Positions 24,367 through 27,507 of a stretch of 64,000 bases of DNA are shown in pieces (the stretch's first letter is position 1; each line of letters begins with the position of its first letter). The notes beneath the pieces were generated by a model that saw only the letters and a list, made by a program, of their open reading frames with translations, made no database searches and had not been told where the DNA came from. Source of the DNA: the human T2T-CHM13v2.0 reference genome, Homo sapiens; the NCBI GenBank assembly GCA_009914755.4, contig CP068257.2:29920001-29984000 (forward strand), read 5' to 3'. The position numbers were made by a program, and so were the translations under genes.

Positions 24367-25840
24367 CAGTAATTTCTTCTTAACTCCTGTATCACTAGTT
24401 TGGGAGGAGGGGAGGAGGCAAGGAACAAGACAGAGAAGGTACAGTCGCCTACAGTTGTCATTGTTTTGTCCGCTTGGCACATATCTCCTCCCTTTCTTTT
24501 AGTATTAGGAACTCTCTTTCTCACGGAGAACCCATTAACCCATTCCCGTGTGATTTAGCTGGAGTTCTTCCAGCAGCATCATACAAGTGGGCACATGGCC
24601 AACCCTCCCAGGCCAATCAGAGTGCATGCCATTTTCCGGGTTACTGTGATGGGTTGAGAGGTGGGCTCAAAAGCTGTGAGTCAGAACCTGGCTGGGCCAG
24701 TCGGAATTGCTCCTCCAGTTTTCCTATGGAACTCTTGGGAGAATGACATGTTCTCTAGAGCAGAAGCCATGAAGAAAGCTAAGCTGAGAGCTGTCAGAGA
24801 TGATCTTGGCTTCCATGTGGAGCTATCTGGCCAGAGAATATGGCCCAAAGGAAAGCAGAAATGACAGAGAAGCAGGGGTACAGGAAAGGGGTCTAAATGG
24901 CATAATTTGGCTTCCTGAATCCAACTCTACCTGAAGCCATTCCCATTCCTTACTTATGCTGCCCAGATATGGGGAACTAATACATCTCTTTTTTTCCTTA
25001 CAGTGGTTTGAATTGCATTTATATCACAGGCAAAAACAAAAAACAAACAAACAAAAAAAACACCTTGACAAAGATGGAAAGTAAAGGAGAAAGATGGAGA
25101 CTGGGTTGGACAGGATGGGTGGTCTCTGAGGGCTCTAAATGCCAGGCAGAGAAGCTTGCCTTATTATGATACATAAATCCTTTCTGGAAAGAGGTGAGAA
25201 ATGCTGTTATCCACCTTTAGCTCTGACTCTTCCCTTCATGTGCTGAGGGGCACTAAGAAGACTCTTTCTTTTAACTGTAAGAAGAGGGTAACAGCCACAT
25301 TTCACTCCAAACCATTAATTTAATAAGTTTAGACAGAAGAGATTATTAGCCTCAGAAGGTGTTGCTTTCATTATCATTGAAATGTGCTTTTTCTGCTTTC
25401 TACTATGTTCTATTCTTCCCTCCCTGAATGCCCACATGCAAATTAGGGAATGTTGCAATGCCCAGAGCAGAGTTATAACATCCAGCTGTACTACAACAGC
25501 AGTTTTACATAAATGGCCATCCTCTAAACTGTGGACATTTGATAAAGTATGTGGGCTCTTCTCATAATTAAAAGCCCAAAAGGGAACCAAGGAAACACAG
25601 AGAACATTATTCTAGTGACTTATAAAACTGGGCTGGAGAAAATCTCCTATGTCTAGAGGTGGAAGAGAAAGGATAAAAAAGGAGAAGGAGTAGAACAGAA
25701 AATGCAAATGAGAAAAAGAGATGGCGGTGGAAAGAAGGGCTGCAGTAGAAGACAGGAGAGAATAGAGCAAGCAGAGGCAGGAAGCCAAGTACGAAAAGGA
25801 GGAGAGGAGTGGGGAGTGTTTAGATCAAGACTCTTCTCTT

Positions 25841-26137
25841 GGCTGGGCGCAGTGGCTCACACCTGTAATCCCAGCACTTTGGGCGGCCGAGGCGGGCGGA
25901 TCACCTGAGGTCAGGAGTTCGAGACTAGCCTGGCCAACATGGTGAAACCCCATCTCTACTAAAAATACAAAGATTAGCTGGGCATGGTGGCACACACCTG
26001 TAGTGCCAGCTATTTGGGGAGGCTGAGGCAGGAGAATCGCTTGAACCTGGGAGGCGGAGGTTGCGGTGAGCCAAGATCGTGCCACTGCAGTCCAGCGTGG
26101 GTAACAGAGGGAGACTCCATCTCAGAAAAAAAAAAAA
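25841..26137 (+). mobile_element. Alu SINE, unit 1 of head-to-tail triple array
   Basis: 'ggctgggcgcagtggctcacacctgtaatcccagc...gagactagcctggcc...aaagattagctgggcatggtggcacacacctgt' to poly-A. Confidence 0.9.
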
Positions 26138-26446
26138 GCCAGGCAAGGTGGCTTTTGCCTGTAATCCCAGCACTTTGGGAGGCCAAGACAGGTGGATCAC
26201 GTGAGGTCAGGAGTTCGAGACTAGCCTGGCCAACATGGTGAAACCCCATCTCTACTAAAAACGCAAAGATTAGCTGGGCATGGTGGTGCACACCTGTCGT
26301 CCCAGCTACTTGGGGAGGCTGAGGCAGGAGAATTGCTTGAACCTGGGAGGCAGAGGCTGCAGTGAGCCAAGATCGCACCACTGCACTCCAGCCTGGGCAA
26401 CAGACAGAGACTCCATCTTAGAAAAAAAATAAAAATAAAAAATAAG
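26138..26446 (+). mobile_element. Alu SINE, unit 2 of triple array (shares diagnostic variants with unit 1)
   Basis: 'gccaggcaaggtggcttttgcctgtaatcccagc...gagactagcctggcc...aagattagctgggcatggtggtgcacacctgt'. Confidence 0.9.
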
Positions 26447-26718
26447 GCCAGGCAAGGTGGCTTACGCCTGTAATCCCAGCACTTTGGGAGGCCAAGGCAT
26501 GTGGATCACGAGGTCAGGAGTTCAAGACCAGCCTGGCCAACATGGTGAAACTCCGTCTCTACTAAAAATACAAAAATTAGCCAGGTGTGGTGGCGGATGC
26601 TGTTAATCTCAGCTATTCGGGAGGCTGAGACAGGAGAATCGCTTGAACCCAGGAGGCGGAGGTTGCAGTGAGTCGAGATCGCACCATTGCACTCCAGCCT
26701 GGGCAACAAGAGTGAAAC
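26447..26718 (+). mobile_element. Alu SINE, unit 3 of triple array, no A-tail
   Basis: 'ggccaggcaaggtggcttacgcctgtaatcccagc...' ending 'gagtgaaactccatctca' immediately followed by the TSD copy. Confidence 0.9.
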
Positions 26719-27507
26719 TCCATCTCAAGACCCTTCTCTTCTCTGGACCTCCATTTCCTCCTCTGGGGCATCCATAGGCAGAGCCAACTACATAATTTGC
26801 AGGGCCTGATACAAAATCGAAACGTGGAGCCCTTTGTTCAAAATGTACTCAAAATTTGGAGGCAGCAGCAGCACAGCATTAAACCAACTGTGGGGACCTG
26901 TGCAACCATGGAGGTCACATGCCCATGAAGCTGGCTCTAATAAATTAGATCAGGATTTTCAGAAGGTGTTCTGTAAACTCCAGATATTCCAAAAACAAAA
27001 GATTCCTTATTCTCATCTCTAGGAAGTGGGGCACATTTCCCCATCCCTTCATTGAAGATTCAAAATGCGCGTGAACTGCTCCAGAAAGCCCTGCTTGAAA
27101 GCAAGAAACGTGTGTGCCTTCATTTCAACCAGTTTCTCAAATGTATTTGACCATAGCAACATTTTTTCCCCAATTCTCCATATTAATACCCCATATAACC
27201 CATTTTGCAAAATGCTTGAAGTCGATGGTCTTGAGGTCCCTGGAGCTAGAAAAGGCATTAGCAGTCACCCACAGCAGCCCCTCCTGCCCTGAGATTGGAT
27301 GCTCACAAATCTGCTCTTCTTGGCCTTGATGATGACAGTGGTCTCTTTCTTCCAGATTTGATGAGTGTGGGGCATGGGAGGAGATTACTGGGGTTGCAAA
27401 ACCTGCAGCAGGTTCTCAAAGATGACATATCAACTCCCCTAAATGCCCCTCCACTCAGGCACCATGAAAGCCTTTGTTTTAATACACTCAAAATGTTGCC
27501 TCTTCAC

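What the first reader, a model, noticed from the sequence alone, without database searches (positions are those of the whole stretch)
25826..26731. Head-to-tail triple Alu array bounded by a single target-site duplication
Three plus-strand Alus (25841-26137, 26138-26446, 26447-26718) abut with only their A-tails between them. The sequence just before unit 1 ('tcaagactcttctctt') recurs with one mismatch immediately after unit 3 ('tcaagacccttctctt'), and unit 3 has no poly-A tail. Units 1 and 2 share diagnostic variants not in unit 3 ('gagactagcctggcc', 'aaagattagctgggcatggtgg', 'cacacctgt'), which suggests tandem duplication of one Alu rather than three independent insertions. One TSD for about 890 bp of Alu implies either successive insertions into a pre-existing tail followed by tail loss, or unequal crossing-over or replication slippage expanding a single insertion. 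Such arrays are hotspots for further non-allelic homologous recombination.
Basis: seen in the sequence. Interest (0 to 1): 0.5.

Follow-up and report, generated by a model that had tools for sequence, protein, structure and literature searches.

The report
Three-Alu array with recombinant middle copy
Two different Alu repeats that sat head to tail inside one target-site duplication misaligned and recombined about 20-35 million years ago, leaving a hybrid third copy between them; this is an ordinary, already understood kind of primate genome rearrangement.

Summary
Three full-length plus-strand Alus lie head to tail, with bodies at 25841-26123, 26138-26419 and 26446-26726. Only A-rich tails separate them. 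The array is bounded by AAGACTCTTCTCTT and AAGACCCTTCTCTT (13/14 match), and unit 3 has no A-tail.

The interpretation needs correcting. The array is neither an expansion of one Alu nor three independent insertions. Units 1 and 3 are different elements: unit 3 carries a 2-bp deletion at Alu positions 65-66 and G153, and unit 1 does not.

Unit 2 is a chimera:
- **Positions 2-57:** it shares 7 of unit 3's 8 derived states. The most shared by any of 53 other Alus in the window is 4.
- **From position 65 through the tail:** it shares 13 of unit 1's 22 derived states (background maximum 9), including three variants that are nearly private.
- **Switch point:** one switch lies in GGATCAC (26194-26200), with permutation p about 1e-4.
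- **Age of the two parts:** they are about equally diverged from their parents (7.1% and 8.9%).

The best reading is one unequal, homology-driven exchange between two adjacent Alus, giving A, a B/A hybrid, and B. This matches the known class of Alu/Alu-mediated duplication.

The missing terminal tail is unusual: it is the only tail-less end among about 50 Alu 3' ends in the window, and it stays unexplained. No orthologous sequence could be retrieved. Interest is low.

The parts
25827..25840 (+). 5' target-site duplication AAGACTCTTCTCTT. The repeat is a 16-mer if the preceding TC at 25825-25826 is counted. The implied nick site is TC|AAGA.
25841..26123 (+). Unit 1 body ('A'). A full-length AluSx-like element that keeps CACCTGAGG and C153.
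   Evidence: 90.3% identity to AluSx, positions 1-289; SRP-like monomer hits.
26124..26137 (+). Unit 1 tail, AG followed by 12 A.
26138..26193 (+). Unit 2, 5' segment (Alu positions 2-57), derived from the unit 3 lineage. It shares A5, A9, A10, T18, A49, A54 and T57 with unit 3.
   Evidence: 7 of 8 of unit 3's derived states, background maximum 4 of 8; reciprocal nearest neighbours, identity 0.929.
26194..26200 (+). Exchange interval GGATCAC (Alu positions 58-64). These are the 7 nt between the last unit-3-type site and the first unit-1-type site.
26201..26419 (+). Unit 2, 3' segment (Alu positions 65-282), derived from the unit 1 lineage. It lacks the 2-bp deletion and shares T86, G132, G163, the extra G near 175 and seven CpG changes with unit 1.
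   Evidence: (identity 0.908, the highest of 1540 pairs).
26420..26445 (+). Unit 2 tail AGAAAAAAAATAAAAATAAAAAATAA. It begins with the same AG as the unit 1 tail.
26446..26726 (+). Unit 3 body ('B'). A full-length AluSg/Sq-like element with the 2-bp deletion at positions 65-66 and G153. It has no A-tail.
26727..26740 (+). 3' target-site duplication AAGACCCTTCTCTT, matching the 5' copy at 13 of 14 positions.

Best explanation
**Ancestral locus.** It held two different Alus head to tail inside one 14-bp target-site duplication. 'A' was the unit 1 lineage, AluSx-like, with an AGAAAA... tail. 'B' was the unit 3 lineage, AluSg/Sq-like.

**The event.** About 20-35 million years ago, B on one chromatid or homologue paired out of register with A on the other, or a replication fork switched template between them. 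The exchange resolved within GGATCAC at Alu positions 58-64. The product carries A, a full-length hybrid (B positions 1-57 joined to A positions 65-282 plus A's tail), and B. That is a one-period tandem duplication of about 300 bp.

**What is shown.**
- Three full-length Alus.
- One TSD bounding the array.
- A mosaic unit 2 with a single switch.
- About equal divergence of both parts of unit 2 from their parents.

**What is inferred.**
- The molecular pathway (crossover versus template switch).
- The date.
- That A inserted first and B then went into A's tail.
- That the terminal A tract after B was lost later. The repeat TCAA...TCAA on either side of the lost tail could have mediated an exact excision.
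For: - **Polarised shared-derived sites.** All seven unit 2 + unit 3 sites lie at positions 5-57, apart from one CpG site at 240. All ten unit 2 + unit 1 sites lie at positions 86-232.
- **Breakpoint test.** Maximum chi-square permutation gives p = 14/100000 unpolarised and 79/100000 polarised.
- **Comparison with 53 other window Alus.** In positions 2-57, unit 2 shares 7 of 8 of unit 3's derived states (background maximum 4) and 0 of 4 of unit 1's. In positions 65-282 it shares 13 of 22 of unit 1's (background maximum 9) and only 4 of 23 of unit 3's, which is typical of background.
- **Rare markers.** A10 occurs in 0 of 53 and T18 in 3 of 53 (shared with unit 3). T86 occurs in 1 of 53, G132 in 0 of 53 and the extra G near 175 in 1 of 53 (shared with unit 1).
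- **Nearest neighbours.** Units 2 and 3 are reciprocal nearest neighbours in positions 2-57, and units 2 and 1 in positions 58-282. The unit 1/unit 2 3' identity of 0.908 is the highest of 1540 pairs.
- **One date.** Divergence from parent is 4/56 for the 5' part and 20/225 for the 3' part, which do not differ (Fisher p = 0.80).
- **Consensus check.** The consensus used to polarise the sites, recalled from memory, differs from the majority of the 53 window Alus at only 4 CpG or subfamily positions, and repolarising with the majority consensus gives the same partition.
- **Literature.** Alu/Alu-mediated rearrangements leave a full-length chimeric Alu with short microhomology at the junction, and they include duplications (PMC6071635; PMC9675761).
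Against: - No orthologous locus or unduplicated allele could be retrieved, so the two-unit ancestor is inferred and not seen.
- The 5' evidence rests on 57 nt, and five of its seven sites are CpG transitions, which recur easily.
- One CpG site (position 240) and one non-CpG site (position 173, shared by units 1 and 3) do not fit a clean single switch.
- The exchange interval is only 7 nt between mismatches. That is short for classical homologous recombination and fits microhomology-mediated template switching equally well.
- The model does not explain why unit 3 lacks a tail.
- The two junctions (12 A then GCC, versus ...AAATAAG then GCC) must have diverged considerably since the event.
Confidence: 0.8

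Rival explanations
1. Whole-unit duplication followed by gene conversion. Unit 1 was duplicated in tandem as a whole, or unit 2 is a retro-copy of unit 1 that landed in unit 1's own tail. Unit 3 is an independent insertion. A later short-tract gene conversion then made the first ~57 nt of units 2 and 3 alike.
For: - It explains the same mosaic.
- Gene conversion between neighbouring Alus is established in general (my own knowledge).
- The stray sites at positions 240 and 173 hint at some patchy exchange.
Against: - It needs at least two events where one suffices.
- A whole-unit duplication with junctions exactly at the Alu 5' end and the tail end has no homology to drive it, unless a second Alu is already present.
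- Both segments of unit 2 are about equally diverged from their partners (7.1% versus 8.9%, Fisher p = 0.80). That equality would have to be a coincidence.
Confidence: 0.1
2. Three independent retrotranspositions, each into the A-tail of the previous Alu. The shared variants would come from shared source genes or from recurrent CpG decay.
For: - The window is 29% Alu and holds several other head-to-tail or nested pairs.
- Tandem Alu inserts are described as common (PMC3415434).
Against: - Unit 2 shares variants that are absent or nearly absent from 53 other window Alus, and it shares them with exactly its two neighbours, in two non-overlapping blocks.
- The product of background frequencies for the seven 5' sites is of order 1e-6 (my calculation from the counts).
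- The unit 1/unit 2 3' identity exceeds all 1537 background pairs.
Confidence: 0.02
3. One reading: a single Alu insertion expanded to three copies by slippage or unequal crossing-over.
For: One TSD bounds the whole array, and units 1 and 2 share private variants.
Against: - Units 1 and 3 differ by the 2-bp indel at positions 65-66, by C/G at 153, and at 34 of 223 sites in positions 58-282. They are no closer than random Alu pairs.
- A single Alu offers no out-of-register partner that would give exact one-unit periodicity.
Confidence: 0.02
4. Sub-question, origin of the ancestral dimer and of the missing tail. A-tail-B entered in one retrotransposition event. Either reverse transcriptase switched template from the 5' end of a B RNA to the tail of an A RNA, or a read-through dimer transcript was copied. 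Priming was at the very start of B's tail. This would give one TSD and no terminal tail directly.
For: - There is a single 14-nt TSD and a complete Alu body with zero tail.
- A full-length, TSD-flanked, tail-less AluSq2 has been attributed to internal priming. The same paper states that complete tail decay is unreported (PMC5402677).
Against: - It combines two rare features, internal priming and template switch or dimer mobilisation.
- Sequential insertion into an A-tail is far more common.
- No source dimer could be looked for with these tools.
Confidence: 0.07

Closest known systems
Alu/Alu-mediated rearrangements (AAMR), also called transposable-element-mediated rearrangements of the homology-driven class (TEMR-HR); PMC6071635, PMC9675761
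   Same: - Two directly oriented Alus act as substrates.
- A full-length chimeric Alu sits at the junction, in register.
- Short GC-containing microhomology marks the switch: 7 nt here, against a reported median of 17 nt with most under 25 nt.
- Duplications and higher copy gains are reported as outcomes.
   Different: - The two substrates here are immediately adjacent, so the duplicated segment is just one Alu period (about 300 bp). Reported events have a median near 1.3 kb, though the stated range starts at 93 bp.
- This event is ancient and presumably fixed. It is not a polymorphism or a disease allele.
Alu recombination-mediated deletion (Sen 2006 and Han 2007, as cited in PMC6071635)
   Same: The same exchange between misaligned direct Alus. 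The reciprocal product of the event inferred here would be a single A/B hybrid Alu between the same TSDs.
   Different: This locus carries the gain product, not the loss product.
Tandem Alu inserts produced by insertion next to or into the A-rich tail of a resident Alu (PMC3415434)
   Same: This explains the likely origin of the ancestral A-B dimer with only A-rich sequence between the units. Other such pairs occur in this window.
   Different: In those pairs the downstream Alu keeps its tail. Here the downstream unit has none, and the middle unit is not an insertion at all.
Tail-less, TSD-flanked, full-length AluSq2 at 8p11.23, attributed to internal priming (PMC5402677)
   Same: A complete Alu body abuts a TSD with no poly-A.
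   Different: Here the matching 5' TSD lies upstream of a different Alu (unit 1), about 890 bp away. The tail-less end therefore belongs to a composite, not to a single element.
Alu-derived minisatellites and tandem repeats (PMC3389668; Jurka and Gentles 2006, as cited there)
   Same: Alu sequence repeated in tandem by local duplication rather than by transposition.
   Different: Those arrays are mostly partial-Alu units expanded between short direct repeats. Here whole units are involved, and the homology of a second Alu drives the duplication.

Membership tests
Alu SINE (dimeric, 7SL-derived) | A body of about 282 nt that aligns full-length to the Alu consensus, with left and right 7SL-related monomers | tested here: met
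   - All three units align over positions 1-282 at 87-90% identity.
- Six sub-threshold Metazoa_SRP hits mark both monomers of each unit.
- The remembered consensus was checked against the majority of 53 window Alus.
Classical TPRT Alu insertion (each unit taken separately) | An intact 3' end, a 3' poly-A tail and its own flanking TSD | tested here: not met
   - No unit has its own TSD pair; only the array as a whole has one.
- Unit 3 has no tail.
- Units 1 and 2 do have tails.
Alu/Alu-mediated duplication (AAMR / TEMR-HR) | Two parental Alus in direct orientation flank the duplicated segment | tested here: met
   Units 1 and 3 are both on the plus strand and are distinct elements.
Alu/Alu-mediated duplication (AAMR / TEMR-HR) | A junction Alu that is full-length, in register and chimeric, with one switch between the parental sequences | tested here: met
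   Maximum chi-square permutation gives p = 1.4e-4. The switch lies between positions 57 and 65. Nearest neighbours are reciprocal by segment.
Alu/Alu-mediated duplication (AAMR / TEMR-HR) | Microhomology at the breakpoint | tested here: met
   GGATCAC, 7 nt, identical in all three units and bounded by informative sites.
Alu/Alu-mediated duplication (AAMR / TEMR-HR) | An unduplicated allele or orthologue showing the pre-event state | not testable with these tools
   No primate genomes are available. Scans of metagenome and prokaryotic contig collections with both flanks found nothing.
Internal-priming (tail-less) Alu insertion | A full-length body, flanking TSDs and complete absence of a poly-A tail | tested here: inconclusive
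   The unit 3 end fits, but the partner TSD flanks unit 1. Later deletion of the tail cannot be excluded.
Non-classical (endonuclease-independent) Alu insertion | 3' truncation, no TSD, and a deletion at the target | tested here: not met
   The body is complete to position 282 and a 13/14 TSD is present.

The most novel reading that the evidence does not exclude
The ancestral A-tail-B dimer was delivered by a single L1-mediated event. Either reverse transcriptase switched template between two Alu RNAs, or a read-through tandem-Alu transcript was mobilised. Priming was at the first bases of the tail. That would explain directly why about 890 bp of Alu has one TSD and no terminal poly-A.
Probability: 0.07. 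Interest if true: 0.45.

Novelty: new member of a known kind. Interest (0 to 1): 0.18.

Why it matters
This is a textbook-clean example of how adjacent Alus produce further copies by recombination rather than by retrotransposition. Both parents and the hybrid are still legible after tens of millions of years.

It has three small practical uses:
- **Annotation.** A repeat annotator will list three insertions where there were only two.
- **Dating and phylogenetic markers.** Unit 2 is not an independent insertion character.
- **Structural variation.** The array could still gain or lose units in steps of about 300 bp.

None of this would surprise a specialist. The only odd feature is the tail-less 3' end abutting an intact TSD.

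Tried and rejected
- **Orthologue or empty-site search.** I scanned metagenome and prokaryotic genome contig collections for host-derived copies. The 3' flank pattern AAGACYCTTCTCTTCTCTGGACCTCC would match both filled and empty sites. I also used the 5' flank GGGGAGTGTTTAGATCAAGACTC. All four scans gave 0 hits.
- **Gene identification.** ORFs of at least 70 aa in 5000-9000, spanning the block of 68% G+C at 6001-8000, look like GC-rich noise. I ran no further search on this.
- **Other local Alu duplicates.** None found. Apart from unit 1 with unit 2, the top identity pairs are scattered, unrelated elements, and adjacent pairs such as 49899/50266 are not unusually alike.
- **Bacterial-type promoter and terminator scan.** Irrelevant to a primate sequence and at background level.
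- **Three independent insertions.** Considered and rejected (see rivals).
- **Expansion of a single Alu.** Considered and rejected (see rivals).
- **Non-classical, endonuclease-independent insertion.** Rejected because a TSD is present and the 3' end is intact.
- **Unequal exchange between the TSD copies.** Rejected because it would leave a TSD between the units, and none is there.
- **Insertion of unit 1 upstream of a resident unit 3.** Rejected because unit 1 would then have its own TSD, and none is there.
- **Alu consensus sequences.** They were recalled from memory. I checked them against the majority of 53 window Alus, and the unpolarised tests do not depend on them.
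Full report
**What is there**

The window is primate-like and very rich in Alu. BLAST with Alu consensus sequences recalled from memory finds 75 Alu segments covering 29% of the 64 kb. At the flagged site, Tandem Repeats Finder reports one array at 25852-26727 with period 296, 2.9 copies and 85% matches.

Three full-length plus-strand Alus are present:
- **Unit 1:** body 25841-26123, tail AG + 12 A to 26137.
- **Unit 2:** body 26138-26419, tail AGAAAAAAAATAAAAATAAAAAATAA to 26445.
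- **Unit 3:** body 26446-26726.

A curated library supports the identification. Rfam gives six sub-threshold Metazoa_SRP matches, one on each left and right monomer.

**The flanking repeat and the missing tail**

TCAAGACTCTTCTCTT (25825-25840) and TCAAGACCCTTCTCTT (26725-26740) are two of only three matches with up to 2 mismatches in the window, against 0.07 expected. They sit exactly at the two outer borders of the array.

The TC of the 3' copy is also the last two bases of the Alu body. The conservative TSD is therefore AAGAC[T/C]CTTCTCTT, 13/14. This length matches the 14 ± 3 bp reported for de novo Alu inserts (PMC3415434). The implied nick site TC|AAGA is a tolerable variant of the L1 endonuclease site TT|AAAA.

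The unit 3 body is complete and runs straight into this repeat with no A-tail. Among about 50 genuine Alu 3' ends in the window, it is the only one lacking both an A-rich tail and a tail-derived microsatellite.

**Unit 2 is a chimera**

I projected the three units and 53 other near-full-length Alus from the window onto consensus coordinates, then tabulated every variable site with its background frequency.
- T86: 1 of 53.
- G132: 0 of 53.
- Extra G giving TTGGGGAGG: 1 of 53.
- G163, seven CpG changes, and the G at the second tail position are also shared.

All of these lie at Alu position 86 or beyond. In the first 57 nt, unit 2 shares nothing derived with unit 1. Instead it shares seven derived states with unit 3:
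- A10: 0 of 53.
- T18: 3 of 53.
- A5, A9, A49, A54 and T57 (CpG changes).

Units 1 and 3 are different elements. Unit 3 has the 2-bp deletion at positions 65-66 (10 of 53 in background) and G153 (20 of 53). These are subfamily-type markers of the Sg/Sq kind, a label I give from memory. Units 1 and 2 lack both.

**Statistics**

- **Positions 2-57.** Unit 2 shares 7 of 8 of unit 3's derived states. The background distribution runs 0-4, with a maximum of 4. It shares 0 of 4 of unit 1's.
- **Positions 65-282.** It shares 13 of 22 of unit 1's (background maximum 9, mode 4) and only 4 of 23 of unit 3's, which is typical of background.
- **Breakpoint test.** On the 46 sites where units 1 and 3 differ and unit 2 matches one of them, the maximum chi-square test places the break between site 54 and site 55, where unit 2 matches unit 1. 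Site 57 matches unit 3 again. Only 14 of 100000 permutations do as well. The polarised, shared-derived version gives 79 of 100000.
- **Pairwise identity.** The unit 1/unit 2 identity over positions 65-282 is 0.908, the highest of all 1540 Alu pairs in the window (background maximum 0.884). Their identity over positions 1-57 is 0.737, below the background mean.
- **Nearest neighbours.** Reciprocal nearest neighbours are unit 2 with unit 3 for positions 2-57, and unit 2 with unit 1 for positions 58-282. The 3' part of unit 3 and the 5' part of unit 1 are closest to unrelated Alus.
- **Consensus check.** The remembered consensus differs from the majority of the 53 window Alus at only four CpG or subfamily positions. 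Repolarising with the majority consensus gives the same partition.

The last unit-3-type site is position 57 (26193). The first unit-1-type feature is the absence of the deletion at position 65 (26201). The exchange interval is therefore GGATCAC, 26194-26200.

**Mechanism**

One event explains all of this. An ancestral A-tail-B dimer misaligned by one unit, and an exchange between B and A gave A, a B(5')/A(3') hybrid carrying A's tail, and B.

This also accounts for the exact head-to-tail periodicity and for the shared AG at the start of both internal tails. The reciprocal product would be a single A/B hybrid.

Both parts of unit 2 are about equally diverged from their parents: 4/56 = 7.1% and 20/225 = 8.9%, Fisher p = 0.80. 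That is expected for a single event.

The non-CpG distance of 15/233 (Jukes-Cantor 0.067) gives roughly 22-34 My for substitution rates of 1.5-1.0e-9 per site per year. This date is an inference. It places the event near the split of apes from Old World monkeys, so the array is probably fixed.

Whether the exchange was a meiotic or sister-chromatid crossover or a replication template switch cannot be told. The 7-nt interval is short. The literature on Alu/Alu rearrangements reports:
- full-length chimeric Alus at the junction;
- microhomologies mostly under 25 nt (median 17 nt for the homology-driven class);
- support for both NAHR and microhomology-mediated template switching (PMC6071635; PMC9675761).

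**Rivals**

- **Whole-unit duplication of unit 1 plus later gene conversion** between the 5' ends of units 2 and 3. This fits the mosaic but needs two events. It lacks a homology source for the first event, and it would make the equal divergences a coincidence.
- **Three independent insertions.** Excluded by the neighbour-specific sharing of near-private variants.
Excluded because units 1 and 3 are no closer than random Alu pairs.
- **Minor misfits.** CpG site 240 is shared by units 2 and 3, and position 173 is shared by units 1 and 3. These may be parallel changes or small conversion patches.

**The unexplained part**

Why does one TSD enclose both parents, with no terminal tail? The commonest route to tandem Alus is insertion of B into A's tail. 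Other pairs in the window show this, and PMC3415434 calls tandem inserts common. That route predicts an A-rich tract after B.

Three options remain:
- **Later deletion.** The tract was removed after insertion. The repeat begins TCAA, the same four bases as any Alu body/tail junction, so a 4-nt direct repeat flanked the tail and could have mediated an exact excision. This is my inference.
- **Internal priming at the boundary.** B inserted at the boundary between A's tail and the TSD, primed at the 5' end of its own tail, with only a 2-3 nt duplication. AAG both precedes the unit 3 5' end and follows its 3' end.
- **Single-event co-insertion.** A-tail-B arrived in one event.

PMC5402677 reports a tail-less, TSD-flanked AluSq2 and ascribes it to internal priming. 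It adds that complete tail decay is unreported. I rank later deletion first, because the other two routes each combine two rare features, but this is not settled.

**Limits**

No orthologous or allelic sequence was obtainable. Four scans of public contig collections with both flanks found nothing. Subfamily names rest on remembered consensus sequences. The date depends on assumed rates.

**Verdict**

This is a further instance of a well-known kind of Alu/Alu-mediated rearrangement, and interest is low.

Noticed in passing
window 6001-8000: A block with 68% G+C, against about 45-50% elsewhere. It looks like a CpG island or promoter, about 18 kb upstream of the array. ORFs there look like GC-rich noise, and the gene was not identified.
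   Followed up: partly
window 38651-39238: A nested Alu. An older Alu (positions 1-135 and 121-287) is split in its A-rich linker by a 5'-truncated Alu (38786-39072) with a 12-A tail, and GCAAAAATT repeats on both sides. The inner Alu carries an odd G-rich expansion at about 38815-38845.
   Followed up: partly
window 48947-49568 and 53637-54091: Two more apparent Alu-in-Alu insertions at the A-rich linker, one inverted and one direct. They were inferred from BLAST coordinates only.
   Followed up: no
window 17879-18458; 39072-39552; 13283-13888 (minus strand): Other head-to-tail Alu pairs separated only by A-rich tails. At 39264-39552 the downstream member keeps a 17-A tail, unlike unit 3 of the array.
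   Followed up: partly
window 26153-26156: Changes private to unit 2 at Alu positions 19-20 create TTTT (GGCTTTTGCC). This resembles a Pol III terminator 16 nt into unit 2 and would end any read-through transcript from unit 1.
   Followed up: no
window 33632-40300: A run of 13 consecutive Alu hits, all on the plus strand, with matching positive GC and AT skew in 34-40 kb. This is a strong local orientation bias.
   Followed up: no
window 25640-25815: A purine-rich (A/G) stretch of about 170 nt immediately upstream of the array. Its origin is unknown; it may be low complexity or an old repeat.
   Followed up: no
window 25975-26027, 26271-26323, 26578-26629 (+); 26340-26399, 26646-26705 (-): Sub-threshold Rfam hits to mir-1268 and mir-3135 inside the right monomers of the Alus. 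Because they lie inside Alu right monomers they probably reflect Alu sequence rather than separate genes, and all are far below gathering scores.
   Followed up: no
window 12116-12160: The Alu ending at 12128 has its A-tail replaced by a (TA)n repeat and a T run.
   Followed up: no
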